Shown here piece by piece: positions 3,639 to 49,343 of a stretch of 64,000 nucleotides of DNA (position 1 is the first letter of the stretch; every line of letters begins with the position of its first letter). Location: positions 145,514,001-145,578,000 of the forward strand of contig OZ024740.1 of NCBI GenBank assembly GCA_964016885.1, read 5' to 3'. The DNA comes from Eledone cirrhosa. Its lineage: Eukaryota. A model generated the notes under the pieces. It saw only the letters and a list, made by a program, of their open reading frames with translations. It did not search any database and was not told where the DNA came from. The position numbers and the translations under genes are program-made.

Positions 3639-3671
<33 letters not shown>
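3624..3671. repeat. (AAT)n tract at the 3' junction of Tx1 element 1
   Basis: Direct reading. Confidence 0.95.
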
Positions 3672-3673
<2 letters not shown>

Positions 3674-3921
3674 TTTCTTTATTAACCACAAGGGTTTACA
3701 TAAAGTAGACATTAAGGACAGTGCAGGACAATACAGGACGGTACAAATGGGCATTTCTGCGTGTAAAAAACAAAAACAGAGGATGTAACAAAAAATAACA
3801 ATGAAAAATTCCCCAATAGGGGGGAGACTTCGGAGGGACACATGTGGAGAAATCCCATTAAAAGGCCACAATGACCCTGACCACCAAGGCAAGTGCCCTC
3901 TCCCAGTTTTCCACCTTTAAT

Positions 3922-6900: not shown

Positions 6901-7346
6901 ATCTAAGATCCCGTTCCAGTCGCCCACTAACACTAAAGAGCGGGACGTTCCAAGAAAGGTCTCCAGACGCCGGAAGAAATCAGGCCGCCCTGCTCCTGTC
7001 GGGGCATAGACGGCCACTAGCCTGAAAGCTTGCCCGTCTCCGCTGGTCACGTCCAGCACCACCAACTTACCCTCTGGGTCCAGGAAGATGGCCCGTATGG
7101 CGAGATCCAAACCTCTCCGAAAAAGCACAGCAACTCCCCCCCCCCCCCCGATCCAGGACGGCTGGGAGATACGTACACATCGTAGCCGCCGAAGATCGGT
7201 GCGAAGGCCCGTGCTTCGGAGATTCTGGTCTCGCTGATGGCCACTACATCTATGTTTAGTGACCTGAGGTCGTTGAGCAGGTGAGCCTGCTTCCATGACG
7301 ACCCCAAGCCACGCGCATTTATGCTGCCTATTCTGAGTGAGGTCAT
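3922..7346 (-). pseudogene. ORF2 of Tx1 copy 1 (APE endonuclease, reverse transcriptase, C-terminal CCHC), disrupted
   Basis: SINARGL, AISET, VGDWN, YLDRVF, TDHK (APE); KSPGLDGLP, LDQSKAFDRV, VRQGCPLS, YADA (RT, mutated YADD); CPRCAQGDETVLHALVQC; split across several ORFs. Confidence 0.92.
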
Positions 7347-7381
7347 GTTTAAAATAGAGTGGAAAAGATGGGAAAGACCAC

Positions 7382-9521
7382 TTACCGTACTTTTCGTAGA
7401 GGAGGGATGGTTTTTACATCCCTTTTCACTTGATCGTCTGGTGAAGGGACCGTTGAATCGTCCCTTCGGCTGGTCATCGGCTCTTCTATGAGTATGTCCG
7501 AATATACTCTTCGGTTGTTAGTTCCTCCTAGGTCTCTGAAATCACTAACTGCGTTGGGGAATTTCGTTTTAATTTTTGTGTATTGTTTCTGTGCTATTTT
7601 TAGCAGTCTTATGTTAGTTGGCGTTTTGATTGGTGCTGGTATTATGTAGTCGTGTTGTGAAATGTCTGTGTGTTTTATTATGTAAGTCATTAGTTTCTTG
7701 TTGCGTGTATTTATTGCCGTGCATTTGTTTTTCTGTGGGTGGGGTGTGGTTCTGCTATTTTCTTGTCGTTTTTGCTGGGTGTGTGTGTTTTGTTGTTGTG
7801 TTTGCGATGTTGGTGCTTGTGGTGGTGGTGTTGAAGGTGTTGTTGTTGTTGGCGGTGGGGTTGTCGCCGGTGGTGATGGCGGTGCTAGTGTGGGTGGTGA
7901 TGGTATTGGTGGTGTTGCTGCTGTGAGTCTCTTTGCAGTGGACTTTACCCTTTTTCATTTCTTTCCTCCCTTTTCAAAGGCGACGATGCGCTGCTTCTGC
8001 GTTTGTGCCTTCTTACGACCTTTTGCCATCCCTCTCCCACCTCACACTCCATGTCTGATTCTGTGAGGTCGGGGAGGGGTACCAGCTCCACTCTTTCACT
8101 TGTTGTTGTTGGTGATGTTTGCACTGGAGTCGCTGTTGCAGCTGCATTTGGTATTGCTGTTGTTGTTGTTGTTAATACTTCCACTGCTGCTGCTGTTTTT
8201 GATTTCCGTGGCGTGGGTATGGGTGCCACGGACCTATCCTTCCTGGTTGCCGCTTGTCCTGTTGCTGGTAGCCGTGGAGCCGGTTTCGGAAGGAGGGGGA
8301 TTTTCTCCTTTCTCAGGGTCTTCTCGTTGCAGAAGGCCCTGAGGTGAGTCTTCGATCTACAGCGAAAGCATTTCGGGCGTTTGCCCTCAACACTTATGGG
8401 CAGTTGAGTGCCGTTATCGAAGTCTATCACATCCGGGATAGCTTCGATGCACTCCTGGTTGGTTTGGATTAACATCTCAATGGAGGTGCCGACCCAATCT
8501 TCTCTTACTTTTTTCTGTACTTGCAGTACAGTTGTTTTGTCCTCGATTCCGACGAGGACAGACGCGGCCAGCCAAGAAGGGGCCATCCCGGGGGGGGGAC
8601 GTGGGTCAGTTTGACCCTCACAATTTTTGGCCCGCAGTAGGAGGGCACCAACACCATTTCCTCGCTCCTTAGGGTCACTACGGATTGAGCCTTTGCCTCC
8701 TGGGGTGTGGCAAAAAGTACGTCTACGGTGGCATATTTCTTGCCTCGGGTGATGTGTGTTTTCCGCTGCCACACAGACCCCAAGGCTTTTTGTATTTGAG
8801 CCTCTGTGGCTCTTTCCACCCTACGGGATTTTGTACTTATTGTACGGTACGTGACCGTACAGTGCTGTTGGGTTTCGAAAAATTTTTCCGATGCCTTGCA
8901 GATTCCTCGGTGTCCAGTTTTTGTCACCATCTTCTTCGCTTCCTCTAATTCCTCATTTGTTATGAGGATGGTTTCCAGGTTCTTTGCGATACCTGTAAAC
9001 GAGATTGGTTTTTCTTTGCTGCTGTTGTTGTTGTTGTTGTTGTCGTCAGAGCTGCTGTTACTTTTGTTGTTGCTGCAGGTACTACGACTACTGCCGCCGC
9101 CGCTGTTGCTGTGGTTGTTGTTGTTGTTGCTGCTGCTGCTGCTGTTGTTGTTGCTGCTAATGCTGTTGTTGTTTATGCTGCTGCTGATGCTGTTGCGGCT
9201 GCTACTGTTGTTTTCCTTGTCACTGTTGCTGCTGTTATTACGGCTGCTACTGCTATTATTCCTGACGTCAGACGAATGAAATGGGTTTTCGTATTTCCCG
9301 CACACCTTTTTCGTCGTTGTCGTCGTCGTCGTGGAGAAATCTTGCTCGCTTTGCACGTGATTTTTCTTTTCTGGCGTCGCTTGTGAAAGAGAAGGGAGGG
9401 AGAGAGACACATTTAGAGAAGGGAGGGAGAGAGACAATCTTCTCTCTGCTGTAGTGACGATTGAGGAAGAAGAAGACGGAATGAGTGGGAGTGACCTATG
9501 AAAATTCTTTTTCGTAGCCAT
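7382..9521 (-). pseudogene. ORF1 (gag-like, CCHC knuckle) of Tx1 copy 1, two frameshifts
   Basis: CFRCRSKTHLRAFC knuckle; ORFs 8505-9521, 7945-8772 and 7382-7690 join through frameshifts at a G-run (~8590) and a T-run (~7951). Confidence 0.8.
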
Positions 9522-9738
9522 GTTGTTTTTCTTTGTTTAAAGTAAATATTGGGCACAAAACCCCAATAGGCGGTTATTTCACCCCGAAGGGCCAAATAAC
9601 GGGCAGAAAGACCCCTCTCACGAGGAGGAGGGTGTTTTTGTCTACAAGTTGGTTAAAGTTTTAAACAATTTACAATTGTTATAGCGGTCAAAATTTGCAA
9701 TACCTTACAGAGCCGAGCCTCCGTCAACCATAGCATTC

Positions 9739-9786
<48 letters not shown>
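9739..9786. repeat. (AAT)n tract separating the two Tx1 copies
   Basis: Direct reading. Confidence 0.95.
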
Positions 9787-9788
<2 letters not shown>

Positions 9789-10035
9789 TTTCTTTATTAA
9801 CCACAAGGGTTTACATAAAGTAGACATTAAGGACAGTGCAGGACAATACAGTACGGTACAAATGGGCATTTCTGCGTGTAAAAAACAAAAACAGTGGCTG
9901 TAACAAAAAAAACAATGAAAAATTCCCCAATACGAGGGAGACTTCCGAGGGACATTCGTGGAGAAAGCCCATTAAAAAGCCACAGTGACCCTGACCTCCA
10001 GGACAAGTGCCCTCTCCCAGTTTTCCACCTTTAAT

Positions 10036-13000
10036 TTACAGACACATACTCAGAGAAGGCCCATTCACTCGGGCCATTCTTGCCTCTCTCACCCATCTTT
10101 CAACAAAATGCTGGGAAGAGAGCACTTCCCTCTCTACCCTGATTTTCCTTTTCAAATGAAATTTGAAAAAGTTAATCACGGTATTACCGAAGAGGTAAGT
10201 GCTTGTCTTCAGTCCTTTCAAACGTGTCCACCATACTATCTCTTTCGCCATGGCCACCAGACAGATAAAAACTGCCTGCCCTTCTCGGCTAAAGGAAGAG
10301 GGCGGGGCAATCCTCACGATGGACTCAGCTGATAGCTGGATCGTCCTACACGCGACAGCAGCTGTTCGACATAAACCCACAAGTCAGCAATGCTCGGACA
10401 CTGGACGAGTGCGTGCAGGACGGTTTCGTCGCCCTGCGCGCATCTCGGACATGTCCGGCTGACGGCACCTCCATGCCTGTAGAGTTTATCCCGAACTGGC
10501 AAAGCTCCTCGGTAGCACTGCCAGGCCAGGGATTTCTGGAAGTTGTCCATAGGCTCCGGCCCGAAAGTTCTTCCAAAGAGATTGGCTAGTTGATTTTCGT
10601 CGACGCCTAGAGTTTCCCCAAGTACGTCGTCGCTCTTCCCCTCCACTAATCCTCTACAGAACGCCAAGGTGGAGTTTCCACCGATCACATTGCCCGATTG
10701 GTCGAGGGCTGTGAGCGCCTGAAGACATTCCAGTCTCCAAGCGCTCCCTCTCGGTCTTCGCTTGACCCAGGACTGCAGCTCCGTCAAGGAAACGAGCTGG
10801 GGAAAGACGCGTCTAGCAAACGGCGACCACACCTGATCACCGTCGAGGAAGAGGTGGAGATGTCGTAGCCTGAGCGCGTGTCTGCGCATCATCAGCCACG
10901 GCTTGCCCAGCCCTCCACGTAGCGGGTGTTGACAGCAGATGGACCGCCTGACCATCGGAGCGCGTTCCTTCCACAAAAAGCGAAAGAGCAAACGCTCCAG
11001 CGCAGTCAGGCGGGGCTTAGGACAAGGTACGACGGTCAGGCGGTAGTAGATGACGGACGCGATGTACGCGTTAGCCACCTCCGCTCGACCTTTCAAGGAT
11101 AGCTTCCTCTCCGCCCATTTCTGGGTGAGAGAAGCCACCCTGCTCGTCACCTCGTCCCAGTTTTTGTCCGTCTGGAGGTCCGGACCGAACCAGACCCCTA
11201 GCAATTTAACCGGTTCGTCCGTCCAGCGCCCGACGGCGCTGTTGGACGGCATGGACCTGCCTCTCCAGGTGCCGAGCTGCAGGCCCACTGACTTTTCCTG
11301 GTTGATCATTGTTCATGTCACCGCTTCGTATTCTCTTAGTGTAGTGCCGATCGCCTCGATGTGTTTGGCGTTCGACACCACTACGGTGACATCGTCTGCA
11401 TATGCTGACACGGATCTTCCGCATCCTAGTTCGTGGGGGACGCCCCTCAACGTCTCTAGTTTGTGCAGTAATGGCTCGAGAGTCAATACGTACAAGAGGG
11501 ACGAGAGGGGACATCCTTGGCGGACCGAGCGCATGATGTTGAACAGAGCAGATGTCGCTGTGCATGGCAGCGATCCAGCCTCTGAAGACGGGCCCAAAGC
11601 CAGCCGCCCTCAGGACTGCCGCTAGGTAACGATGGTCGACCCTGTCGAAAGCTTTCGACTGATCTAAATTAATCAAGGATCCACTCGTGCCAGGTTCCTT
11701 AGCTACCCTCTCTACGATGTATCGCATGAGGTGGAGGTTGTCGTGGATGGATCTGTCGGGAATGGCGCATGTCTGCGCCTCTCCCACCAGACCACCAACG
11801 ACAAGCGCCAACCTCTTTGCTAGCACCTTGGCCAAAATCTTGAACTCTGTGTTTAGCAGAGTTATGGGCCGGAAATTATCTATGTTATCCCCTTGTTCGG
11901 ATCCTTTCTCAGCAGCGCCATAGCTCCTCGGCTCACAGAGCTGGGAATTCTCCCGTTCTGTTGCCAGTTGCAGTAGACGTCCGCCAAGAGGCCTCCGAAC
12001 AAGTCTGGCATATGTACGTAAAGTTCATAGGGCAGACCATCCAAACCAAGCGATTTACCCCTTGTGCAGCCAGTCATTGCTCCCGTACTTCAGCGGCTGT
12101 TATCGGCTTTTCGCAACACTCCGCCTCAGTGGCCGAGAGCCGCGGCAATCCGTCGAGGTAGACACTAAAGTCCATCCCTCGATTCGGCCCGCCGCTGCCC
12201 CCGAACAGCTGAGTGAAGTGTCGCTGAAAAGCTTCACACATTTGCCCGGGATCGAGTAGCATGCGCCCGTCGTGGTCCACCAAAGACCGGATCGTGGCTT
12301 TGTTGCCACGACTGCCTCCGCCACTCGGGCCCATTGAACGGCTTTCGTCCCCTCGTGTCTGAGAGCACGCACCCTAGCTCTGACAACGCAGCCTTCGTGC
12401 TTTGCATTGAAGAATTAGTCAAGGGCCAATTTCGCTGCAAGCACGTCGGTCGCAATGCCTTTGCTAAGCGCCTTGTCTAATTTTCTAACTAGTTCTCCCT
12501 CTGCTCTATTTTTCTCTATTGCTAAAGCCTTACTAGACCTAATGGACTCTATTCTAATCGCTCTTTTCAGAGCAAACCACCACTTGTTGTTGACGATGGC
12601 CCCCGTCAACGCCCGCTTAACTAGTTCGCTAATCCGGTCTCTGTAGGGCTTGCGCGCTAGCAAAGACGCGTTTAGCTTCCAGTAGCCGGGTCCTCGTCTA
12701 TGAAGCCTATCTAAGTCAAGCACACAGATCACGAATTTGTGGTCCGTGTAGCTGACTATCTTGAATTGTTGACAGCCTATGCTAAACCTATCTATTTCCC
12801 TACAAAATACTCTATCTAGATATGATCTGGATGACCCTATGCGATTTGTCCAAGTCCACATTGGCACATTCGGGAAATCCAATCGGTACCTGTCAGACAG
12901 TTCAAAACGCCTGAGCAGGTTAGTGAGGCTCTTGCACCCTCCTCCCCTATCCGCTAATCCCACACAGTCCCAGCATGCATCTAAGATCCCGTTCCAGTCG

Positions 13001-13419
13001 CCCACTAACACTAAAGAGTGGGACGTTCCAAGAAAGGTCTCCAGACGCCGGAAGAAATCAGGCCGCCCTGCTCCTGTCGGGGCATAGACGGCCACTAGCC
13101 TGAAATCTTGCCCGTCTCCGCTGGTCACGTCCAGCACCACTAACTTACCTTCTGGGTCCAGGAAGATGGCCCGTATGGCGAGATCCAAACCTCTCCGAAA
13201 AAGCACAGCAACTCCTCTCCCCGATCCAGGACGGCTGGGAGATGCGTACACATCGTAGCCGCCGAAGATCGGTGCGAAGGCCCGTGCTTCGGAGATTCTG
13301 GTCTCGCTGATGGCCACTACATCTATGTTTAGTGACCTGAGGTCGTTGAGCAGGTGGCCCTGCTTCCATGACGACCCCAAGCCACGCGCATTTATACTGC
13401 CTATTCTGAGTGAGGTCAT
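10036..13419 (-). pseudogene. ORF2 of Tx1 copy 2 (APE-RT-CCHC), disrupted
   Basis: Intact APE ORF 12415-13419; RT with YADD; ~30-bp deletion near 11543 relative to copy 1; further frameshifts and stops. Confidence 0.92.
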
Positions 13420-13453
13420 GTTGAAATGGAGTGGAAAAGATGGGAAAGACCAC

Positions 13454-15333
13454 TTATCTTACTTCTCCTAGAGGAAGGATGGTTTCTCCATCCTTTTCAC
13501 TGCTTGTGGCCTCCTCCGGAAGGATGTCCTTATAAATCCTCCTGGAGAGTGCTTGTCGGAAGTCTCTGATGTCTTTGGGGAATTTTTGTTTTAGTGTCGT
13601 GTACGTTTTCTGTGTGATGCGAGTGATTTGTATGTGTGGAGGTGGTATGAACTTTGGGGGTGTTGTGTAGTCTTTTTCTGTGATGCAGGTGTTGTGTTGG
13701 ATGTAGTGTAATAATTGGTTGTTGTTCAAATTTAATGCTGTGTAGTGTGTATCGTTTTGGTTGTTTTGTTTCGTTTGCATTTATTGTGGGTTTGTTTCTG
13801 TTTCGCTTTTTGGTGACTTTTGTGGTGTTGGGGTTAATGGTGGTGATGGTGTTGGTGTTTGTGGTGATGGGGTTGGTGATGCTGGTGTGGATGGTGGCAT
13901 AGCTGTCCTAACTTTTTTGTTTGATAGTTTATTTGTTTCCCTCTGTATTTTGTTTTTGGAGGGGGGAGGAAGAGGATTTTTTCTTGTGGGGCTTCTTTTT
14001 CTTTTTTTCTTTTTTCCTGATACCGTTTCCCACTCCTCGTCGTCACAATCTGTTTCCAGTTGCGATAGGTCAGGGAGTGGAAAATCCTCCACAGGCGTTG
14101 GTTTTGGTTGTGGCGTGGTGGATGGTGTAGGCGCTGGTGCTAGTTCTGGCGCGTTGGGTGGTGGTGGTGGTGTTGGTTTTGCTACTGTTGCTGGGGTTGT
14201 TGCTGTTCCAGTTGCTTCTGTTGTTGCTGCTACAGTTGTTGCTGCCATTTCTGCTGCTGGTCGTGTTGATGGTTGAGTCACTGGGGTGGGTAAGAGAGGT
14301 GGCGTCAACCTTTTAGCCTGAGGGCAGAAAGCCCTTAGGTGGGTTCCTTCACCACAAACGACACACCTAGGCCTTCTGCCCTCGACGATTACGGTGAGGT
14401 GGCTGCCGTCAGTGAGGTCTATTACCTCTGGGATCTCCTCAATGCTTTTTTGGTCCGCTTGGATCAGGAGCTCCATCCCAGATCCGGACCAGTTCTGCTT
14501 TTCTTTCGCTATTTCGATTATCTTGGTGTTGGCCTCGATGCCGGCGAGGACGGCAGCCATTAGCCAGGGAATTTCGATGGCCGGTGGAACGTGGGTCACC
14601 CTGATCTTCACGAGTCTCTGGCCACAATAGCTTGGGACGAGTGTGAAGTCGTCACTTCTTAATGGGGCCATGGAGTGTTCTCTGGCCTCCTTTGGTGTTC
14701 CAAAGAACACGTCCACGGTTCCATATTTCTGCCCACGTCTGATGTGGGGTTTTTTTGCCCACACATGTCCCAAAGCTTTTGGGATTTGGGACTCGGATGC
14801 CCGTTCCAGTTGGCACCGATGCTCCATTTTATTAGGTGGGGGGTGAGGCTGACCCTATGCCCATCTTTCTTTACCATTCTCTGGGCTTCATCTAATTCCT
14901 CCTGAGTTACCTAGATTGCTTCGCACTTTTTTGCTGCTTTAGCAAAAGACACGTTGGTTTTGTTATTCTCATTGTTGCTGTTGCTGTTGTTGTTATCGTT
15001 ATTTTTGTTATTGTTATTTTTAGTTTCAGTTATGGTGGTGGTGGCGTCAGTGGTGTTCGGTGTGGAAGAGTCCATTCTGGGTGAATCCATTTCGATGTCA
15101 CGAGATAATTTATTTTTTTATTTTGTTTCTGTTGTCGCTGTGGTGGTGGTGGGGGTGGCGGCTTCAACACCTGCAGTCATTGGTAATGGCGGGAAATGAA
15201 TGTCTGCATGAGACAAATTTAAATTATTGCTACTGCTTATATTTTTAGTGTTGGCAAACGTAGTAATATTTACAATGGTGGTGTCGGTGTGAGGTGTTAG
15301 TTTGTGAGGAAGGTGTGGCTGTGAGTCGTCCAT
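13454..15333 (-). pseudogene. ORF1 (gag-like, CCHC knuckle) of Tx1 copy 2
   Basis: CVVCGEGTHLRAFC knuckle; LVPSYCG...THVPP shared with copy 1; in-frame TAA at 13781-13783; 5' part is frameshifted. Confidence 0.78.
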
Positions 15334-15547
15334 GGTTTTTCAAAGAAATTTTTTTGTTTGATAATTATAAAAGTTTAAATTTTGGGCTCAAGGCCCCAAT
15401 CTTTTTGAGTGTCCTTTTCCGAAAGCAAATTGTGTGACCTTATAAACAGTTAACAACAAAAATTTTCCATAAATGGCAATTTTAAACAAACGAAAACAAC
15501 AAACCTTTGCGGAGCTCACAATGATACGATTTCCTACGTAGGTCGCC

Positions 15548-15598
<51 letters not shown>
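15548..15598. repeat. (AAT)n tract at the 5' junction of Tx1 copy 2
   Basis: Direct reading. Confidence 0.95.
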
Positions 15599-23894: not shown

Positions 23895-23906
23895 GGGGGG
23901 ACATAC

Positions 23907-24255
23907 ATGATGGCTGCAAACTCGTGTTCGAGCATAGCCATCACCCGATAAAATGCTCAAAAATGTGAGGAACGAATGTGGCTCTTGAAACCAGCCAAAG
24001 ACTTGCACCCTCTGGCACATATAGGGCAACTGTAGGTTCCTCCGGGACTTTCCATTGCTTTGTTCTGGCTGTGTGTTCTCGTGTGTCTTTTAAGACCTCC
24101 CATGCGAGCACATTCCTTGCACCTTTTCAGATCATTAGCTACATGAGGTCTACTGATATGACTTTGTTCGTGTCTAGTCAAACCAGCTTTACACAGGCAG
24201 ACTCGACCACAGTGCTGGCAAACCAGATCATGTTCAACAGCAGGCAGTTCAAAAC
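23907..24255 (-). mobile_element. RTE-clade LINE 3' fragment (family Z) with C2H2 fingers
   Basis: CQHCGRVCLCKAGLTRHEQSH ... CPICARGCKSLAGFKSHIRSSH*; 3' end GCAGCCATCAT-GTATGT. Confidence 0.75.
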
Positions 24256-24334
24256 GAGCGAACGAACGAACGAACGAACGAACGAACGAACGAACGCACG
24301 AACGCACGAACGCACGCACGCACGCACGCACGAA

Positions 24335-24370
<36 letters not shown>

Positions 24371-24441
24371 CACACACATACATACATACATACATACATA
24401 CATACATACATACATACATACATACATACATACATACATAC
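24256..24441. repeat. Compound microsatellite (AACG)n(CACG)n(CA)n(CATA)n
   Basis: Direct reading. Confidence 0.95.
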
Positions 24442-24976
24442 ATGATGGCTGCTCCCTCGTTATCGAGTATGGCCATTGCACGAGAAAAAAAAAGAAAAAA
24501 AAACATAATAATAACAATAATAATAATAATAACAACAATAATAGTAACGACAACAACAACAATAATAATATATATATATATAATATACACGCACGCACAT
24601 AAACATATCTATACACACACACGATAGCAATTAACAGCGCTGCGATCGAATGTGGCTTTTTAGCCCAGCCAATTATCTAAAATGTCTTGCATAGAGTCGG
24701 CAACCAAAACATTCACTGGGAATAGCCGGCTTTGGTTGGAGTTCATGTACTTTTGCATGTCGTTTGAGCCCTCCTGCTGATTTACATTCTCTACCACATG
24801 CTTGGCAAGCATGATGAGTAGCATCTCCAACAGCAGCCTGGTAGTCAACCACTGGTCTTACTTTATGACTGCGAAGAGGACTTTCGAGTCCAGCTTTGCT
24901 TAGGCAGAGTCTCGCACAGACGCTGCATGTCAGCACCATAGGAGGACCTTCGCCGTCTGGAAGTGCAACAGCAATG
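24442..24976 (-). mobile_element. RTE-clade LINE 3' fragment (family Y), three C2H2-like fingers
   Basis: CSVCARLCLSKAGL, CQACGRECKSAGGLKRHAKVH, ..LAGLKSHIRSQ; 3' end CTCGATAACGAGGGAGCAGCCATCAT followed by (GTAT)n. Confidence 0.75.
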
Positions 24977-24993
24977 CATACATACATACATAC

Positions 24994-25396
24994 ATGGTGG
25001 CTGCCAACTCGTTTTCGAGTACGGCCACTACTTTATATCCATGTAGGAGAACCCCTACCGATGCGCTGAACGAATGTGACTTTTTAGTCCAGCCAGCAAC
25101 TTGAAAACTCTGGTACAAAGACTACACTTGTGACCATTATTGACACATAGTGCAGGACCCATGGTACCATGTGATGACAAGTGCAGAGAGATCTCCAGAT
25201 ATAAAGCAATGCCTGTGCCGTGAAGCTTTTATAGTGAGCAAAGGCACTGCACAAAGCCAGTCCCACTCTCTTAACCAAGATGATATTTACCAAAAAGAAG
25301 AACAAGTCAACATCATTGGATACCATCAGGGTTGCAGGTGTTATATCAGAGTTTTCCTTCTCCTAGAATTCTGCCTTGACAAAGGCTAAGGGGTCA
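24994..25396 (-). mobile_element. Non-autonomous RTE-derived element X, 5'-truncated
   Basis: Near-identical to 29444-30048, 32807-33415 and 48378-48986. Confidence 0.8.
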
Positions 25397-25413
25397 TATA
25401 CATACATACATAC

Positions 25414-26000
25414 ATGATGATGGCTGCCCCCTCGTTATCGAGTATGGCCATTGCACGATATACCATTATTAATAATTATTAATTAATTCTATCGTGCAAT
25501 GCCTGTGCGTGAAGATAATTTTTAAAGTGAGGAAAGACTGTGCACTGAGCCAATCCCACTCTCTGAGCGACAGTAGCTATAACCCGAAAAGAAGAAAAGA
25601 TCAACATCATCGGTAACTACTGAGCTGCAGGTTTTATATCGGAGGTATCCCAGTTTCCTGAGTTGCCTTCTCCTAGAAGAATCCCGACTATTTCTATGTC
25701 CCCGTGCATATACATACACATGCTCCCATGTATATACACATATGTACATATGTACATGTGTATATACATATACATACATATGTACATGTCTATATACATA
25801 TTTACACACTTTTGGATGGCCGTTGACTCTTATGAGTTCTTCCACCCTTTGTCAGGTTTTGTTTTTTGTCCTGCAAGGTATCCAAAATTACCCTCCTCAC
25901 CAAGTAAACTTGGTGGGGTTGCCGATTTAGTCGCCGACGACCCGACCAGCGACAGGTTGTACTGGGTTACATGTTACCAGTAGCACTCAAGAGTGACCCG
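25414..26000 (-). mobile_element. Bipartite non-autonomous RTE element (X-like 5' part plus family-Y 3' terminus)
   Basis: 25810-26000 is homologous to the 5' part of X; 25414-25458 matches the RTE-Y 3' end. Confidence 0.7.
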
Positions 26001-26016
26001 ACATACATACATACAC

Positions 26017-26443
26017 ATCTGCAGATACTCCACCCTGATTACACCTTCAGATTTATGCCTGTGATTATTAGGGCACTAGGATATGTTAGTAACTGCCTCA
26101 ATACAAATCTTGAGAAGCTAGGCTTCACAGGAACAGAAAGAACACAACTAGTTAGGAAATTACAAGTACAATCCATTAATGGAACAGTAAAAATATGTAA
26201 AACATTCCAAAGAAAGTCTAATAACTGCATATACACATGAACAGATTCAAAGCATATACACATGCACACATACAACTCAAAACATACACATCCACACATA
26301 CAATAACATCCATATCTACACATGCATGCATACATACATATAGTTGATGCTGTGTAAATTCCAATGAGAGAGTCTTGTGTCTATGTTAGAAACCGACTCT
26401 CTCTCTATTGGTAAAATTTTGTGAAATTATAAAACCAGAAGAA
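26017..26443 (+). mobile_element. R4/Dong-clade LINE family A, short 3' fragment
   Basis: Near-identical to 28982-29426; ends ...AAAACCAGAAGAA followed by (CATA)n. Confidence 0.85.
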
Positions 26444-26476
26444 CATACATACATACATACATACATACATACATAC

Positions 26477-26638
26477 ATGATGATGGCTGCCCCCTCGTTA
26501 TCGAGTATGGCCATTGCACGAAGAGAAAAAAAAATTAATAAATAAATAAAAAAGAAAAGAAAAATAAAAAGAAAAGAAAAAAAAAATATATATATATATA
26601 TATACACATACACACATACACACACATACATTAATAAC

Positions 26639-26715
<77 letters not shown>

Positions 26716-26892
26716 CAATGATAATAACGACAACAACAATAATAATATACATATACATATATATATACACATACACGCACACACATAAGCATATCTATAC
26801 ACACACACACACGATAGCAACTAACAGCGCTGCGATCGAATGTGGCTTTTTAGCCCAGCCAATGATCTAAAATGTCTTGCACAGAGTCGGCA
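26477..26892 (-). mobile_element. RTE family Y 3' fragment, second copy
   Basis: Matches 24442-24703, with expanded internal (AAT)n. Confidence 0.8.
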
Positions 26893-26928
26893 ACATACAT
26901 ACATACATACATACATACATACATACAT

Positions 26929-29193
26929 AACTCCAAGATAAGAAAACACCAGGAAGAGACATGATTGTCGGCTACTGGCACAAAAAACTAATATTCTATC
27001 GGAGGTATCTTACTGACCTCTACCAACAAGTTCTTAAGGGAGATACACTTATACCAGAATGGTTGACATAAGCACAAACGTTACTGGTCCCCAAGAACAA
27101 AGACACCCACTTGGCAAAAAACTACCGACCCATTGCATGCCAGAGCCTGATGTATAAGATGTATACAGCCTGCCTCAACCTATTCCTCCAAGATCACTGT
27201 GAAAATAATAACATCATCACAGATGAACAAGCAGCTGGAAAGAAAAGGGTTTGGGGATGTGCTGAACAACTCCTAATCAACAAAACTGCGATGTTGGAGG
27301 TGTGACAACTTAGGAGGAATATGACTACAGTCTGGCTGGACTACAAGAAAGCTTTCGATTCTGTTGCCCACTCTTGGATGATAGAGGCCCTCCAACTTGC
27401 TAAAGTCCCAGACATTATTGTCAGAGCCATAGAGAGGCTGTCTTCTTCTTGGGCTACTATCCTAAGGTTAAAGACAGAGAGGGAGGACTCTATTTTCACT
27501 GATAAAATAAAATATTGCAGGGGTATATTTCAGGAGGACAGTCTCTCTGTGATATTGTTCATCTTGTCATTAAACCCCTTGTACTTTCTGCTCAAGAAAT
27601 GTGAGGGATACATCATTGGCTCACAGGAGGACAGAAATACGAACCTAACCCATAACTTCTTTGTGGACGATCTGAAACTCTATGCCAAGAACATGGATGG
27701 GATGAAGAAAAATCTTGACCTGGTTACAACGTTCTCAAAGGATATAGGAATGGAGTTTGGCCAAGATAAATGCTCATACATGACTGTAAAGCGGGAAAAA
27801 ACAACAACCCAATATAGCAACATTGTCATCAATGGTCTAACTGTTTCACCGATATCTGATGAGGACTGCTGCAGATACCTGAGGATAGATGAGAACATAT
27901 CCTATAATGGTATCTGTAATAAAGAACGCGTAACCAGGGAATACTACACCCGATTAAGAAAGATCTGGTCATCGGAACTCTCTGCGCAAAACAAAACAGT
28001 GGCTCACAATGTGTTTGCTGTGCCTGTCCTAACACCAACGTTTGGAATACTCAATTGGACGATAGACGAAATCCGAGCAGTTGATGTTGGAACTCGAAAA
28101 ATACTGAACAACACCGGAAACTTCCACATCAACAGTGACATAGACCGCCTTTACTTGAAACGTAAGCAGGGAGGCAGAGGCCTAACATCAGTCCAGACAA
28201 CATTTGAATGTCGCATCTTATCTCTCCGACAACATCTACGAACCTCGAAGCGTAGGAGCCCGCTTCTCGAGCAAGTCTATCTGCATGAAACAGATAAGAT
28301 CATGAGAGTTGGGAAGGAACTCCTTGAGAGATATTCCCTGTGTGATAATCAAAAACTCACACCCAGGGATGTCGCTCAGCAGTATCGCAGTGAATCCATG
28401 GATGAAAAACTGCATGCCTATCAGCAAAAAATCATGCATGGATATGTTGCCAGGAAGCTCCAGAGTGAGAGTAATATAGATAAGGAAAGTAGTCTATCTT
28501 GGACCAACAACCGCTACATTGGCTCCCACTTTGAAGGATACGATTTTGCACAAAAGAGATAGGGATGCAGGCAAAACACCTAGATGTGATAACAAGTGCA
28601 GACTCTGCAGAACTAACATCGTGGATATCACCCATGTCATCAGCAGCTGCCCAAAGATGTCATCGCGGTATTATCTATCTATTTTGCATGATGTAGTGGC
28701 CAAAACTCTGTACAATGCAGTCCGTAAAAAAGATAGCCCCGATAATAAACACATTAAAAGCTACAACAATGTGGAAGACATCCATGTACATAATATGAAA
28801 GAGTACTGGTGGAATGTTCCAGTAAAAACCTCAATAAAATGCAGGCATAACAGACCAGATATTATGATATGGGACAGGGAGAAGAAAACATGCACAGTAG
28901 TGGAAATTAGCTGCCCAGCAGATGCCAATATAATATCAAAGATTAGTGAAAAGGAGAATATTTATGCAGAACTGATGAGAAATCTGCAGATACTCCACCC
29001 TGATTACACCTTCAGATTTATGCCTGTGATTATTGGGGCACTGGGGTATGTTAGTAATTGCCTCAATACAAATCTTGAGAAGCTAGGCTTCACAGGAACA
29101 GAAAGAACACAACTAGTTAGGAAATTACAAGTACAATCCATTAATGGAACAGTAAAAATATGTAAAAGATTCCAAAAATGTTGCATCGAATAA
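26929..29193 (+). pseudogene. RT-RLE ORF of Dong family A (disrupted)
   Basis: NYRPIAC, WLDYKKAFDSV, GIFQEDSLS, FFVDDLKLY, GGRGL, CRLCRTNIVDITHVISSC, RPDIMIWD..VVEISCP..KENIY; stop at ~27303 and frameshift at ~28550. Confidence 0.88.
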
Positions 29194-29426
29194 CTGCATA
29201 TACACATGTACAGATACAAAGCATATACACATGCACACATACAACTCAAAACATACACATCCACACATACAATAACATCCATATCTACACATGCATGCAT
29301 GCAGACATACATACATATCTACCTAGTTGAGGTTGTGTAAATTCCAATGAGAGAGTCTTGTGTCTATGTTAGAAACCGACTCTCTCTCTATTGGTAAAAC
29401 TTTGGGAAATTATAAAACCAGAAGAA
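26929..29426 (+). mobile_element. R4/Dong-clade RLE LINE family A, 5'-truncated
   Basis: RT plus CCHC plus restriction-like endonuclease; (CATA)n on both sides. Confidence 0.88.
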
Positions 29427-29443
29427 CATACATACATACATAC

Positions 29444-30048
29444 ATGGTGGCTGCCAACTCGTTTTCGAGTACGGCCACTACTTTATATCCATGTAGGAGA
29501 ACCCCTACTGATGCGCTGAACGAGTGTGACTTTTTAGTCCAGCCAGCGACTTGAAAACTCTGGTACAAACACTACACTTGTGACAATTACTGACACATAG
29601 TGTTGGGCCCATTGTACCCTGTGATGACAAGTGCAGAGAAATCTCCAGATATAAAGCAATGCCTGTGCCGTGAAGCTTTTATAGTGAGCAAAGGCACTGC
29701 ACAAAGCCAGTTCCACTCTCTTAACCAAGATGATATTTACCAAAAAGAAGAACAAGTCAACATCATTGGATACCATCAGAGTTGCGGGTGCTATAACAGA
29801 GTTTTCCTTCTCCTAGAATTCTGCCCCGACAAAGGCTAAGGGGTCATCTCTCCCGGTGATTTTGGATGGCCATTGACTCTTAAGAGCTCCTTTGCCCTTT
29901 GACAGGTTTTGTTTTTAGTCCTGCAGGATGTCCAAAGTCACCCTCCTCACCAAGAAACCTTGGTGGGGTTGCCAGTTTAGTCGCCAACGACCCGACCATG
30001 AGACAGGTTGTACTGGGATACATGTTACCAGTAGCACCAACTAGTGAC
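29444..30048 (-). mobile_element. Non-autonomous RTE-derived element X (~605 bp, full length)
   Basis: No credible ORF; RTE-type 3' end CGAGTTGGCAGCCACCAT followed by (GTAT)n; four copies in the window. Confidence 0.8.
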
Positions 30049-30137
30049 CATACATACATACATACATACATACATACATACATACATACATACATACATA
30101 CATACATACATACATACATACATACATACATACATAC

Positions 30138-31001
30138 AAAATTGACCAATTTACAGAAAAAGATGTGCACGGGTACTTGAGACGTAAAACACAGACCATA
30201 GAGGGGATAAACCACTCAAAAATCCTGGCATGGAGTTCCGACAAGTTTATGACATCACAACTTGAGGGATATCTCTCTGCAATACAGGAACAAGAACTCC
30301 CTACCAAATATCTGGTGCACAAAAGAGGAAGGCCATCAGCTGACAATAAATGCAGACTATGTAAAACAAAGATAGAAGATGTAAGCCACATTGTTGCCAG
30401 CTGCGAAAGAATGTCATCTCGCTACTACCTCCCATGAGACAGGATGGGATAGCTAGAACCATCTGGAACGCATTTCGGAAATCAAAATTAACAACAAACG
30501 AGGAAGAATATATTGAGACAGATGGCACTAAGGAAGACTGGTGGAACCTGAAAATAAAAACTGCCACCAAATTAAAGCACAACCGGCCTGATATTGTTGT
30601 TTGGGACCACACATTGAAAACGTGTTCTGTTGTGGAGATCAGCTGCTCACTTGATGTAAACGTTGTCAGAAAAATACAGGAGAAGGAGGACATCTACGGA
30701 CCATTGATGAGGAGTTTACAAATCCAGTATCCAAGATACACCTTTAGCTTCTTACCCATCATTATTGGAGCTACGGGTTATATACCAACCCGCTTGGACC
30801 AATGTATAATTGAACTTGGATTTGCGGACAAAGAGCGCAGCTCCCTAATTCATAGTCTACAAATGGCTGCGATAGCTGGCACCTTCAAAATTTGCAAAAC
30901 ATTCTTGCGATTCAAGGGATGACAATTTCTTTTCTTTTACAACCTTGCCACCAGGAAGGTGGCCGGTCAAAAATAAACTCGAAATTAAGAGAAAGAGATA
31001 A
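30138..31001 (+). mobile_element. R4/Dong-clade LINE family B, 3' fragment
   Basis: AIQEQEL, CRLCKTKIEDVSHIVASC, NRPDIVVWD..VVEISC..KEDIY; ends GAGAAAGAGATAA followed by (CATA)n. Confidence 0.85.
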
Positions 31002-31091
31002 CATACATACATACATACATACATACATACATACATACGTACGTACATACATACATACATACATACATACATACATACATACATACATACA

Positions 31092-31121
<30 letters not shown>

Positions 31122-31122
<1 letters not shown>

Positions 31123-32789
31123 TTTGAAAAATAAATACAAAATATTAGTGAATAGACGAACTCATCATGGTAAAACGTACAAGTCTTCTTCGACCAAATC
31201 GCAACTACAACCGTTATATACAGTGGAGCTACGAGCTTAACAAAGAATTATATGAAGCATACAAACAATCTGAACCCCAAAAGTTCGGTTTTATGCAAAG
31301 GCTAAAAACTTTATGGAACTCCAAACACCCAGAATTAGACTTTTCTCCAAAGCATTTAAATGAACAGGCAAAACGTATTATTAGATGTAAATTGATACAT
31401 CTAACGGAATTGAGCGATACTACAAATACAGCCCTTGCAGACAACCACCCCACCTCCACTGACAGACAAAGAGAATGGCCAGCTAAATCTAACAGTGAAC
31501 AGCTCACCAACAATTTTGCAGAAATCCATCCCTCTTCCACTGAAGAACAACGAGAATGGTCAGCTAACTCTAGTAGTAATTGTCACCACATCAACAACGA
31601 GGCTGAAATTCATGACTCTACAGTACAAGCAGAACACCAAAAACTTGTGGACACCTTACAAGTGATATGGAACGTTATGTTTCAAGAGATACACAGCCTT
31701 AATGTGAGTGACAGACCATACAACACCAGAATCAGTAAAGAACCCACTAAATTGGAATTGTAAGCGGTGAACTAAATAGCTGACAATTATCTGAAGGCTA
31801 TACGATCTAAAGGTGTAGAAACGACATTTGAAACGCTTAACATTTTGTTATATGTTTCAGCTGTCACATTGCTATCATATAACAAACATCTAAAACCACG
31901 CAATCAAGATACAAACAAAAAGCCTGAACCAGCGTGGATGCGAAATTTAAAAGGCAAAATTTTGTCCCTGAGACGAAGTATCTCACACATCGCAGTCGTT
32001 ATGAAATTCAACATAGAGAGCAACTTCACACGACACCAGGAAGCCCTAAAAAAAGTTCGAGACGATTTGGAGATACAAAATTTAAAACTTTAAACTCCAA
32101 ATTACACCAGTTGAAACAACAACTCACAGCTACAACAGAAAGACTAAAATATAAGTCAACAGCACATAAACGACAAGTGCTAAATAGATTGTTTGCCAGA
32201 GATCCTAAAACAGTTTATCGCAGCTTCGGTGGTAAAAGCTCAATCTCTGTAAATGACACCCCTTCAAAAGAACAGGTTGGGAGCTACTGGAGATCTGTAT
32301 GGAAAACGGATGATGGATTCAACAGACAAACTAATTGGCTAAAAGAACTGGAACAGGACTACTGCCAACATGTCCAGACAAAACAATATGACATAGATGG
32401 GTCAATACTGGAAACAGCTCTACAGAAAATGTCGAATAGGAAATCACGTTGTCAGAAAAATACAGGAGAAGGAGGACATCTACGGACCATTGATGAGGAG
32501 TTTACAAATCCAGTATCCAAGATACACTTTTAGCTTCATACCCATCATTATTGGAGCTACGGATTATATACCAACCCGCTTGGACCAAAGTATGACTGAA
32601 CTTGGATTTGCGGACAAAGAGCGCAGCTCCCTAATTCATAGTCTACAAATGGCTGCGATAGCTGGCACCTTCAAATTTTGCAAAACATTCTTGTGATTCA
32701 AGGGATGACAATTTCTTTTCTTTTACAACCTTGCCACCAGGAAGGTGGCCGGTCAAAAAAATATACTTGAAATTAAGAGAAAGAGATAA
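31122..32789 (+). mobile_element. R4/Dong family B with intact 5' end and internal deletion of the RT
   Basis: N-terminus WSYELNKELYEAY..GFMQRLKTLWNSKHP; jumps at ~32446 from the pre-RT region into the RLE segment equivalent to 30660 onward. Confidence 0.8.
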
Positions 32790-32806
32790 CATACATACAT
32801 ACATAC

Positions 32807-33415
32807 ATGGTGGCTGCCAACTCGTTTTCGAGTACGCCCACTACTTTATATCCATGTAGGAGAACCCCTACCGATGCGCTGAACGAGTGTGACTTTTTAG
32901 TCCAGCCAGCGACTTGAAAACTCTGGTACAAACACTACACTTCTGACAATTATTGACACATAGTGCTGGGCCCATGGTACCATGTGATGACAAGTGCAGA
33001 GAGATCTCCAGATATAAAGCAATGCCTGTGCCGTGAAGCTTTTATAGTGAGCAAAGGCACTGCACAAAGCCAGTTCCACTCTCTTAACCAAGATTGTATT
33101 TACCAAAAAGAATAACAAGTCAACATCATTGGTAACCACCAGGGTTGCAGGTGTTATATCAGAGTTTTCCTTCTCCTAGAATTCTGCCTTGACAAAGGCT
33201 AAGGGGTCATCTCTCCCAGTGATTTTGGATGGCCATTGACTCTTAAGAGCTCCTTTGCCCTTTGACAGGTTTTGTTTTTAGTCATGCAGGATGTCCAAAG
33301 TCACCCTCCTCATAAAGAAACCTTGGTGGGGTTGCCAGTTTAGTCGCCAACGACCCGACCATGAGACAGGTTGTACTGGGATACATGTTACCAGTAGCAC
33401 CAACTGGTGACCTGA
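32807..33415 (-). mobile_element. Non-autonomous RTE-derived element X (full length)
   Basis: Copy of 29444-30048, flanked by (CATA)n. Confidence 0.8.
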
Positions 33416-33453
33416 CATACATACATACATACATACATACATACATACATACA

Positions 33454-33484
<31 letters not shown>

Positions 33485-45727: not shown

Positions 45728-46581
45728 TCTTTTCATTCAAAGAATATAAAATTCCTGAATTTAAATCACAAACTAGCGCTATCAAAGACTGTTCCTGGGA
45801 TGAGAGTGGATGATGTAGAACAGGTTTATCAAGGGCCGTAGTAAAGATAGAGGCAAAAGGAGGTAGGTCAAACTAGCCACCGCTGTTATCAGCAGCAGTC
45901 GGAATGACCCGGTTTGTTCTCAACGTATGTGGAGGTAGTAGTAATATGAAATACGTCCTTTCACGCACAAGGCGCCAAGGTACGCATGTATTGTCCAACC
46001 AAGTGCCAGTGTGGTTCAATGGCGGGTTAATAAATTAACGAGCCAGAACAAATATAAACAAGGTTTAGTAAATAATGAAAAAGTTTCAAAATAAATTTTA
46101 AAAAATTGACTTTACCCACTATAGTTGGGCCTACGTATGGCCTACGTTTTATTTTTGGGATTCGAAACCGATCGGTAAAGGTAACTATAGTGGGTAAAGT
46201 CAATTTTTTAAAATTTATTTTGAAACTTTTTCATTATTTACTAAACCTTGTTTATATTTGTTCTGGCTCGTTAATTTATTAACCCGCCATTGAACCACAC
46301 TGGCACTTGGTTGGACAATACATGCGTACCTTGGCGCCTTGTGCGTGAAAGGCCGTATTTCATATTACTACTACCTCCACATACGTTGAGAACAAACCGG
46401 GTCATTCCGACTGCTGCTGATAACAGCGGTGGCTAGTTTGACCTACCTCCTTTTGCCTCTATCTTTACTACGGCCCTTGATAAACCTGTTCTACATCATC
46501 CACTCTCATCCCAGGAACAGTCTTTGATAGCGCTAGTTTGTGATTTAAATTCAGGAATTTTATATTCTTTGAATGAAAAGA

Positions 46582-46665
46582 ACCTTCTGACGAGAATCTC
46601 TCTTTGCAACGAAGGCCGTATGGCCTACGTTTTATTTTTGGGATTCGAAACCGATCGGTAAAGGT
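46582..46665 (+). ncRNA. Type I hammerhead ribozyme
   Basis: ACCTT-CTGACGA-GAATCTC..GGGATTC-GAAA-CCGATCGG-TA/AAGGT: complete core, stems I and II, palindromic stem III, GUA cleavage after 46660. Confidence 0.88.
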
Positions 46666-47064
46666 AACTATAGTGGGTAAAGTCAATTTTTTAAAATTTA
46701 TTTTGAAACTTTTTCATTATTTACTAAACCTTGTTTATATTTGTTCTGGCTCGTTAATTTATTAACCCGCCATTGAACCACACTGGCACTTGGTTGGACA
46801 ATACATGCGTACCTTGGCGCCTTGTGCGTGAAAGGACGTATTTCATATTACTACTACCTCCACATACGTTGAGAACAAACCGGGTCATTCCGACTGCTGC
46901 TGATAACAGCGGTGGCTAGTTTGACCTACCTCCTTTTGCCTCTATCTTTACTACGGCCCTTGATAAACCTGTTCTACATCATCCACTCTCATCCCAGGAA
47001 CAGTCTTTGATAGCGCTAGTTTGTGATTTAAATTCAGGAATTTTATATTCTTTGAATGAAAAGA

Positions 47065-47148
47065 ACCTTCTGACGAGAATCTCTCTTTGCAACGAAGGCC
47101 GTATGGCCTACGTTTTATTTTTGGGATTCGAAACCGATCGGTAAAGGT
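47065..47148 (+). ncRNA. Type I hammerhead ribozyme
   Basis: Identical motif 483 bp downstream; cleavage after 47143. Confidence 0.88.
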
Positions 47149-47321
47149 AACTATAGTGGGTAAAGTCAATTTTTTAAAATTTATTTTGAAACTTTTTCAT
47201 TATTTACTAAACCTTGTTTATATTTGTTCTGGCTCGTTAATTTATTAACCCGCCATTGAACCACACTGGCACTTGGTTGGACAATACATGCGTACCTTGG
47301 CGCCTTGTGCGTGAAAGGACG

Positions 47322-47368
<47 letters not shown>

Positions 47369-47373
<5 letters not shown>

Positions 47374-48010
47374 ATTAGAGTTAAAACTCAATTGGAACCC
47401 TGTAACTATTAAGCTCCAAGTATAAAAATACTGAGCCGATTAATAATATATTTGCCAACGTTCACACAGAAAGATGAATTTGTCACCTCGTGCTTCGCTA
47501 GTCAAACGTGGTAAGCGTGTATTGAATAGAAATAACAGTCCAACACACACAACTTAATAAGCTCAACTTTTATACTTGGAGCTTAATAGTTACAGGGTTC
47601 CAATTGAGTTTTAACTCTAATTTTCATATATATTTCTGCTCCCTCACAAGTTGAGCTTATTAAGTTGCGTGTGTTGGACTGTTATTTCTATTCAATACAC
47701 GCTTACCACGTTTGACTAGCGAAGCACGAGGTGACAAATTCATCTTTCTGTGTGAACGTTGGCAAATAGTGTTTGTTGCATTTAATCTGATTCTCTCGCT
47801 GATGATACCTAGGATTATCTGTTACAAACACACTCAGGGCGAAACAGATTAGGGATAATCTGTCCGAGAGATATAATGGTTATTGAGGCGGTTTGTATAA
47901 TAATATATTTTTATTTTATCATTCTGTCTGCTTCTTGGTTAAATATTTCAAACAAATGTGGTTTTTCAACCCTTGTAATTTTAGACACACGGCTTACTGT
48001 GTTTCTTACT
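47369..48010 (+). mobile_element. Non-coding PLE-like/retrozyme element with interleaved inverted 5' segments
   Basis: 47369-47428 inverted at 47568-47627; 47450-47569 inverted at 47648-47767; hammerhead inside; (TA)n flanks. Confidence 0.65.
47792..47871 (+). ncRNA. Type I hammerhead ribozyme
   Basis: TCTCTCG-CTGATGA-...-GAAA-CAGATTA(GGGA)TAATCTG-TC/CGAGAGA: perfect 7-bp stems I and III, GUC site; stem II weak. Confidence 0.78.
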
Positions 48011-48357: not shown

Positions 48358-48377
48358 ACACATACATACATACATAC

Positions 48378-48986
48378 ATGGTGGCTGCCAACTCGTTTTC
48401 GAGTACGGCCACTACTTTATATCCATGTAGGAGAACCCCTACCGATGCGCTGAACGAGTGTGACTTTTTAGTCCAGCCAGCGACTTGAAAACTCTGGTAC
48501 AAACACTACACTTGTGACAATTATTGACACATAGTGCTTTACCTTTGGTACCATGTGACGACAAGTGCAGAGAGATCTCCAGATACAAAACAATGCCTGT
48601 GCCGTGAAGCTTTTATAGTGAGCAAAGGCACTGTACAAAGCCAGTTCCACTCTCTTAACCAAGATGATATTTACCAAAAAGAAGAACAAGTCAACATCAT
48701 TGGATACCATCAGGGTTGCAGGTGTTATATCAGAGTTTTCCTTCTCCTAGAATTCTGCCTTGACAAAGGCTAAGGGGTCATCTCTCCCAGTGATTTTGGA
48801 TGGCCATTGACTCTTAAGAGCTCCTTTGCCCTTTGACAGGTTTTGTTTTTAGTCCTGCAGGATGTCCAAAGTCACCCTCCTCACCAAGAAACCTTGGTGC
48901 GGTTGCCAGTTTAGTCGCCAACGACCCGACCATGAGACAGGTTGTACTGGGATACATGTTACCAGTAGCACCAAGTGGTGTCCTGA
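48378..48986 (-). mobile_element. Non-autonomous RTE-derived element X (full length), outside the nest
   Basis: Copy of X with (CATA)n on both sides. Confidence 0.8.
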
Positions 48987-49343
48987 CATACATACATACA
49001 TAGATACATACATACATACATACATACATACATACATACATACATACATACATACATAAATACATACATACATACATACATACATACATACATACATACA
49101 TACAAACGTCACAACGAACGCCTTTATAGGGGTGACAACATAAGGATCGATTCGATTTGCTAGAAATGGCAGTCAGACACCATAAAATCACACACACAAA
49201 CGTCATAACGAACGCCTTCTTATACATAAAACAACACAAAACGACTGATTTGACCTGCTAGAAATAACAGCCAGCATGTGAGTGTCCATGTCCGTTTTTA
49301 AAGCTTCAGAAGGGTCTAAGCAATGCAATGAAGAACAATATAA

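What the first reader, a model, noticed from the sequence alone, without database searches (positions are those of the whole stretch)
23901..33482. 9.6-kb (CATA)n nest shared by two unrelated LINE clades with a strict strand rule
Seen: 11 inserts, each separated by (CATA)n. All seven RTE-derived pieces are minus-strand with (GTAT)n after their 3' end; all four R4/Dong pieces (two families) are plus-strand and followed by CATACATA. Known: RTE elements use APE and often end in short tandem tails, while Dong/R4 elements use an RLE and include microsatellite-specific families. Inference: a self-amplifying safe harbour in which each insertion regenerates target for both clades, with convergent specificity of two endonuclease types on opposite strands.
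Basis: partly seen in the sequence, partly recalled or inferred. Interest (0 to 1): 0.72.

Follow-up and report, generated by a model that had tools for sequence, protein, structure and literature searches.

The report
Two jumping-gene clades share CATA repeats
Eleven pieces of two unrelated kinds of jumping gene are stacked in one CATA repeat facing opposite ways, the same rule holds for their copies across this (likely octopus) genome, and the stack likely grew because each insertion copies a short stretch of the repeat and so leaves landing sites for the next.

Summary
The nest is real: 7 minus-strand RTE-derived and 4 plus-strand R4/Dong-like pieces separated by (CATA)n. It is the long tail of a genome-wide pattern, not a special locus. 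In 800 kb sampled at random, 9 of 9 Dong 3' ends run into ACAT; 19 of 19 RTE-type ends run into ATGT (10) or (AT)n-type tracts (9); a control SINE scores 0 of 74. 5' junctions also lie in the repeat (88 expected strand, 1 opposite), so it is a pre-existing target, not a tail. All 33 adjacent pairs obey the strand rule; four other nests of 7-8 were found. Target-site duplications (about 9-21 bp) leave repeat on both sides, so self-renewal is supported; rate acceleration and 'safe harbour' are untested. 'Convergent endonuclease specificity' is not shown: RTE strand choice fits a TpA nick plus RNA-end pairing equally well. Precedents: Dong (TAA)n, Waldo ACAY, TRAS/SART opposite orientations. New in my searches: ACAT-targeting Dong lineage and strongly microsatellite-bound RTEs. 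This scan noted the same system on other DNA of this genome at least six times.

The parts
23901..23908 (.). left remnant of the target tract (two ACAT units)
   Evidence: sequence
23909..24258 (-). insert 1: 3' fragment of RTE family R1 (C2H2 zinc-finger C-terminus, 3' UTR); oldest piece, 4.3% from family majority
   Evidence: longer R1 copies are 54-60% identical to the RTE-2 RT region
24262..24443 (.). compound (CGAA/CGCA/CA) tract then 68-bp (ACAT)n spacer
24444..24976 (-). insert 2: 3' fragment of autonomous family RTE-2 (zinc fingers, microsatellite-rich 3' UTR)
   Evidence: full-length copies carry APE and RT
24996..25397 (-). insert 3: 5'-truncated R3 (non-coding RTE-derived short element), flanked by 19- and 18-bp spacers of TSD size
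25416..26000 (-). insert 4: R4, non-coding element with an R3-like head, part of the RTE-2 5' UTR (91%) and the RTE-2 3' end (97-100% over 42 nt)
26016..26442 (+). insert 5: 3' fragment of R4/Dong-like family DA
   Evidence: 95-96% to insert 7
26479..26892 (-). insert 6: short 3' fragment of RTE-2
26930..29425 (+). insert 7: 5'-truncated DA with broken RT, CCHC knuckle and RPD...E(I/V)SC restriction-like endonuclease motif
29446..30048 (-). insert 8: full-length R3
30139..31000 (+). insert 9: 3' fragment of R4/Dong-like family DB (RLE region, 3' UTR)
31122..32788 (+). insert 10: DB, 5' UTR truncated, N-terminal Myb/SANT-like region, internal deletion of about 1.9 kb at 32445/32446
32809..33414 (-). 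insert 11: full-length R3
33415..33483 (.). right (ACAT)n tract, 69 bp; unique DNA beyond

Best explanation
This is a stack of eleven independent insertions by R4/Dong-like and RTE-type retrotransposons that sit in (ACAT)n repeats in fixed opposite orientations throughout this genome, and it likely grew because each insertion duplicates a few repeat units and leaves a usable landing site on both sides. Shown: genome-wide placement in pre-existing repeat at both junctions, fixed polarity, TSDs made of repeat, independence of the copies, near-contemporary ages. Inferred: Dong (RLE) binds the tract through its N-terminal Myb-like domain, nicks the ATGT strand and primes there; the RTE enzyme (APE) nicks the other strand at the pyrimidine-A step, as RTEs are reported to do, and priming succeeds where the primer end pairs with the RNA's terminal AU(GU), which admits (ATGT)n and (AT)n but not (ACAT)n on the sense strand; the autonomous RTEs move R3 and R4 in trans; slippage lengthens the spacers afterwards. 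An 11-member nest is then the expected extreme of a growth process (a handful per genome).
For: Random 800 kb (80 x 10 kb from 7 contigs): Dong 9 of 9 ACAT; RTE-type 10 of 19 ATGT and 9 of 19 (AT)n-type; control SINE 0 of 74. 5' junction runs of 11 bp or more, expected:opposite strand: R3 36:0 of 60, DB 28:1 of 44, DA 24:0 of 38; background 0.6%. First bases after the element end: AT in 156 of 166 RTE-type copies (ATGT 125, ATAT 28), ACAT in 50 of 59 DA. Full-length DB and RTE-2 copies begin inside the repeat. TSDs of about 9-21 bp in imperfect tracts. 33 of 87 anchor copies have a directly adjacent family member and 33 of 33 obey the rule. Four other nests with 7-8 inserts among 19 loci followed up; 61 of 61 ends with a tract obey, 9 had none. 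In-nest copies of one family are 95-96.5% identical, as are genome-wide pairs. DB 5' tracts are longer than 3' tracts (median 46 vs 18 bp, p=0.003). Geometric extrapolation gives about 4 nests of 11 or more, a homogeneous Poisson 0.002. RTE TA-step signature and RNA-end pairing model: PMC6007223, PMC13295347 (passages).
Against: No biochemistry; nick positions are inferred from junctions inside a repeat and are uncertain by 1-2 nt, most of all for DB, whose 3' end is ragged. RTE copies that start in pure (AT)n still lean to GT-polarity neighbours 7:1 (p about 0.08), hinting at tract-level recognition beyond local pairing. ATGT is used far more than its share relative to ATAT (9:8 in the random sample against 1:11 site abundance), which two-base pairing alone does not explain. 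DA shows no 5'/3' tract asymmetry (p=0.66) and R1 5' junctions were mostly not in repeat with the short reference used (2 of 17). One random R3 copy sits in an AT tract with opposite-polarity neighbours (L204). Divergences (1-3.5%, R1 4.3%) cannot order the insertions. Clustering cannot separate growth from unequal tract quality; the independent-allocation rates (0.12-0.19) rest on rough hand estimates. Two thirds of tracts are empty. Most junction counts come from search-anchored loci, not the random sample.
Confidence: 0.65

Rival explanations
1. One reading: both endonucleases recognise the repeat themselves and converged on opposite strands; the RNA end plays no part in strand choice.
For: Strong preference of RTEs for ATGT over the far commoner ATAT; 7:1 GT polarity around AT-junction copies; APE elements can be ACAY-specific (Waldo; PMC3812793 passages).
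Against: RTE copies use (AT)n in 9 of 19 random cases; the junction begins AT in 156 of 166, matching the RNA end; published RTE model ties the first TSD base to the RNA tail.
Confidence: 0.3
2. No growth: the nest marks an unusually long or tolerated tract that was hit many times independently.
For: Spacers total 521 bp; tract lengths vary widely (12-124 bp perfect); heterogeneity mimics growth statistically.
Against: No sampled tract approached several hundred perfect bases; five internal spacers are 15-20 bp, the size of one TSD, and insert 3 has 19 and 18 bp on its two sides, which fits re-use of a short spacer; occupied tracts are no longer than empty ones (p=0.71).
Confidence: 0.2
3. Builder and tenant: RTEs carry an (ATGT)n tail that creates the tract, and Dong then targets RTE tails.
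For: RTEs generate microsatellites in Lepidoptera (PMC2887409 passages); many tail-to-tail RTE-Dong pairs (16 of 33 adjacent pairs are cross-clade).
Against: RTE 5' junctions lie in the repeat (36:0); copies in (AT)n carry no ATGT tail; 64 of 95 tracts have no family member beside them.
Confidence: 0.05
4. Assembly artefact or local tandem duplication.
For: Short-read contigs could not verify the internal junctions; a duplicated DA pair exists elsewhere (L205).
Against: Same-family copies in the nest differ by 3.5-5% with different truncation points; similar nests occur on four other contigs or arms.
Confidence: 0.02

Closest known systems
Dong (R4 clade; Bombyx, Anopheles, Biomphalaria, ostracod)
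   Same: Single ORF with N-terminal Myb/SANT-like domain, RT, CCHC and RLE; fixed insertion into a microsatellite (PMC7998251 and PMC3812793 passages).
   Different: Reported target is (TAA)n; DA and DB use (ACAT)n and form a clade (100/100) only about 29-30% identical to a TAA-type Dong-like family in the same genome.
RTE clade LINEs and their short derivatives (BovB, RTE-2_OV, Tn-TA signature)
   Same: APE + RT + C-terminal C2H2 in one ORF, microsatellite-rich UTRs, short (CAT)n-like end, TSD starting with A.
   Different: RTEs are described as not sequence-specific or as dispersed; here 55 of 60 R3 copies have a purine-pyrimidine tract at the 3' side and 51 of 60 at the 5' side against 9% background.
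WaldoAg1/2, WaldoFs1 (R1 clade)
   Same: APE-type LINEs inserted in ACAY microsatellites.
   Different: Different clade and host group; no shared use with an RLE element was seen in the passages read.
TRAS and SART in Bombyx telomeric repeats
   Same: Two families enter one tandem repeat in opposite orientations and build arrays (PMC10088271 passages).
   Different: Both are R1-clade APE elements at telomeres; here the partners use different endonuclease types at dispersed microsatellites.

Membership tests
R4/Dong clade | RT followed by CCHC knuckle and restriction-like endonuclease motif, no APE | tested here: met
   RVT_1, no Exo_endo_phos in near-full DB and DA copies; CCHC and RPD...E(I/V)SC motifs; best PDB sequence hits are R2 proteins
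R4/Dong clade | N-terminal diverged Myb/SANT-like domain without zinc fingers | tested here: inconclusive
   Predicted three-helix bundle at residues 22-74; most top matches are Myb/SANT domains but at Z 5-5.9, in the range of common arrangements; Foldseek E above 1
R4/Dong clade | RT phylogeny with named R4/Dong references | tested here: inconclusive
   Tree built but no homologue carried the name Dong or R4; the clade label rests on architecture
Dong sensu stricto | (TAA)n target | tested here: not met
   ACAT at both junctions
RTE clade | Single ORF with APE then RT, no ORF1, no RNase H | tested here: met
   L127: Exo_endo_phos E 2e-12 and RVT_1 E 2e-30; homologues share APE-RT-C2H2 layout; 5' UTR runs straight into the ORF
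RTE clade | RT phylogeny with named RTE references | not tested
   No named reference among hits; label rests on architecture and on octopus RTE descriptions
RTE clade | Tn-TA insertion signature (T stretch about 10 nt upstream, TSD starts at TA) | tested here: inconclusive
   Informative TSDs start with A after T (5) or C (3) by eye; no T stretch is possible inside the repeat
RTE-derived non-autonomous short elements | Shared 5' UTR and 3' end with an autonomous RTE, no ORF | tested here: met
   R4: 91% to RTE-2 5' UTR, 97-100% at the 3' 42 nt; R3: 68% and 87% over 30 nt, no ORF, own autonomous parent not found
Target-specific LINE (endonuclease-determined) | Enzyme cleaves the target sequence specifically | not testable with these tools
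   Needs in vitro nicking assay

The most novel reading that the evidence does not exclude
An RTE lineage has become near-obligately microsatellite-targeted and shares one TpA step with a retargeted Dong lineage, the two RNA ends (AU versus AC) picking opposite strands; together about 100,000 copies build self-renewing polarised arrays, one of several such repeat-specific niches (ACAT, TAA) that partition this genome and even nest inside each other's UTRs.
Probability: 0.35. Interest if true: 0.7.

Novelty: new variant of a known kind. Interest (0 to 1): 0.5.

Why it matters
It gives a natural, high-copy test of how LINEs choose targets: an RLE lineage that moved from TAA to ACAT next to a TAA-type relative in the same genome, and an APE clade usually called dispersed that is here tied to one repeat class. 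If the RNA end sets RTE orientation, that is relevant to RTE-based gene-writing tools, now described as random integrators. It also offers a mechanism for TE hotspots and microsatellite-marker trouble in octopod genomes. The locus itself holds only dead fragments.

Tried and rejected
Genome search with the R3 3' end returned nothing because the tool skips very common words; R3 copies were taken from other loci and the random sample instead. Rfam found no ribozyme or other real family in the nest or in full-length 5' UTRs, only repeat-driven miRNA noise. PDB sequence search found nothing for the DB C-terminal half or the RTE-2 endonuclease region. The idea that full-length RTE-2 starts in (TAT)n was rejected: that tract is internal to its 5' UTR and is hit by other elements. 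An ORF first taken as R1 (L129:257-1252) proved to be another family (33%); adjacency was recounted without it and did not change. Divergence dating could not order the inserts. Eight literature searches gave no paper on ACAT-targeting Dong or microsatellite-targeting RTE in cephalopods; Repbase/Dfam family notes, Kojima and Fujiwara 2003/2004 and all supplements were not seen and may already record these targets.
Full report
Setting. The window lies in a 3.0-Gb animal genome. The best named relative of the DB protein is from Argonauta hians at 50%, so the host is likely an octopod; this is inference.

Observation. Minus strand: R1 (23909-24258), RTE-2 (24444-24976, 26479-26892), R4 (25416-26000) and R3 (24996-25397, 29446-30048, 32809-33414). 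Plus strand: DA (26016-26442, 26930-29425) and DB (30139-31000, 31122-32788). Spacers are 8, 68, 19, 18, 15, 36, 37, 20, 90, 121, 20 and 69 bp. All pieces are truncated, broken or non-coding.

Identity. Long RTE-2 copies encode APE (E 2e-12) and RT (E 2e-30) and end in C2H2 fingers; R1 is 54-60% identical to RTE-2 in RT. R4 joins an R3-like head to part of the RTE-2 5' UTR (91%) and its 3' end; R3 is related at 68% and 87% and has no ORF. DA and DB have RT, CCHC and an RLE motif without APE; the DB N-terminus models as a three-helix bundle whose top matches are mostly Myb/SANT domains at Z 5-5.9, a weak result that fits the domain reported for R4/Dong (PMC7998251, passages). DA and DB are 51-56% identical, sit in one clade (100/100) and are about 29-30% identical to a third family found in (TAA)n. 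No named reference was in the tree, so the clade labels rest on architecture.

Genome-wide test. In 80 random 10-kb stretches from seven contigs, all 9 Dong 3' ends run into ACAT (two may be one duplicated copy); of 19 RTE-type ends, 10 run into ATGT and 9 into (AT)n-type tracts, one of them beside opposite-polarity repeats. A common SINE has 0 of 74. Over all fetched loci, which are mostly search-anchored, RTE-type ends are followed by AT in 156 of 166 and DA by ACAT in 50 of 59. The 5' junctions decide tail versus target: perfect runs of 11 bp or more on the expected versus opposite strand were 36:0 of 60 (R3), 28:1 of 44 (DB) and 24:0 of 38 (DA), background 0.6%; R1 gave 2:0 of 17 with a reference too short to find true junctions. 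Full-length DB (3 of 4 in perfect, 1 in imperfect repeat) and RTE-2 (2 inspected) also start in the tract. The repeat is therefore a pre-existing target. The sample extrapolates roughly to 100,000 copies with intact 3' ends (28 per 0.8 Mb).

Nesting. 33 of 87 anchor copies (DA, DB, R1; window copies left out) have a family member directly beyond the 3' tract, and all 33 obey the rule. Nineteen loci chosen because they held several inserts or ran off the edge were extended (20 stretches): four held 7-8 inserts, and 61 of 61 ends with a tract obeyed the rule, 9 having none. One-sided adjacency of 0.38 exceeds the 0.12-0.19 expected from independent allocation (rough inputs), and a geometric process predicts about 4 nests of 11 or more per genome against 0.002 for a homogeneous Poisson. 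This nest is thus the tail of a common pattern. In-nest copies of one family are 95-96.5% identical, like genome-wide pairs, so they are separate insertions. Ten pieces lie 1-3.5% from their family majority and R1 4.3%; one burst, order unresolved.

Self-renewal. In imperfect tracts TSDs of about 9-21 bp are visible for R3, DB and DA; most junctions are uninformative because both sides are pure repeat (36 of 62, 28 of 43, 7 of 11) and some informative ones show no TSD. Five internal spacers are 15-20 bp, and insert 3 has 19 and 18 bp on its sides, which fits re-use and doubling of one short spacer (inferred). Against a special harbour: 64 of 95 sampled tract clusters have no family member and are no shorter than occupied ones. 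Growth and unequal tract quality cannot be separated here.

Strand rule. A sequence-directed LINE must have one orientation in an asymmetric repeat, and DA and DB share ancestry, so the opposite orientation is one binary outcome. The duplex has one TpA step per unit on each strand. After it the sense strand reads AT on (ATGT)n and (AT)n and AC on (ACAT)n, matching the RTE and DA junctions. With the published RTE model of TA-step cleavage and RNA-end pairing (PMC6007223, PMC13295347, passages) this explains RTE orientation without a new enzyme specificity. It does not explain the preference for ATGT over the 11-fold commoner ATAT sites or the 7:1 polarity lean in AT tracts (p about 0.08); longer read-through pairing or enzyme preference is needed. 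For DB the longer 5' tract (46 vs 18 bp, p=0.003; not seen for DA) fits upstream binding.

Known versus new. Dong targets (TAA)n and Waldo ACAY (PMC3812793, passages); TRAS and SART enter one repeat in opposite orientations (PMC10088271, passages); RTE sites are described as not sequence-specific (PMC2887409, passages; PMC13708176, passages). [quoted passage not shown] PMC3124438 and PMC8869645 (passages) added nothing specific. Eight searches found no report of this pairing; Repbase, Dfam, the Kojima and Fujiwara papers and supplements were not seen. Earlier notes of this scan describe the same system on other DNA of this genome; they are unchecked and were read after my junction tests.

Verdict. 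Real, genome-wide, a new variant of microsatellite-targeting LINEs; self-renewal likely, safe harbour and endonuclease convergence unproven. Interest 0.5.

Noticed in passing
L143, L152, L163, L164 and others of L141-L170 (RTE-2 5' UTR): The RTE-2 5' UTR carries a (TAT)n tract that is itself entered by a TAA-type Dong-like family in reverse orientation, by Tx1-like LINEs and by a SINE: a second microsatellite niche nested inside the element.
   Followed up: partly
window 3624-15598: Array of Tx1-like LINEs (label from recall of the layout) on the minus strand separated by (AAT)n tracts at 3624, 9739 and 15548.
   Followed up: no
window 48360-49104: Solo full-length R3 between (CATA)5 and about (CATA)29, same polarity as in the nest.
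   Followed up: yes
window 58233-59436: Old DA-like copy, 17% from the young family, 3' end lost in a (TC)n tract and no CATA flank.
   Followed up: partly
window 29194-29317 and 26227-26340: The DA 3' UTR contains its own degenerate ACAT-rich stretch, a possible captured target or internal landing site.
   Followed up: no
R3 5' end, e.g. L048, L050, L058, L080: Several full-length R3 copies begin with a shared imperfect target-like lead ending in TATGTCAG, suggesting the transcript starts inside repeat-like sequence.
   Followed up: no
window 46134-47331 and 47328-47630: 2.5 copies of a 483-bp tandem unit at 99% identity, followed by an inverted repeat of about 120 bp.
   Followed up: no
L200, L221, L050: Further RTE-like 3' ends not in my library lie against ACAT tracts with the same polarity, so more families share the niche.
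   Followed up: no
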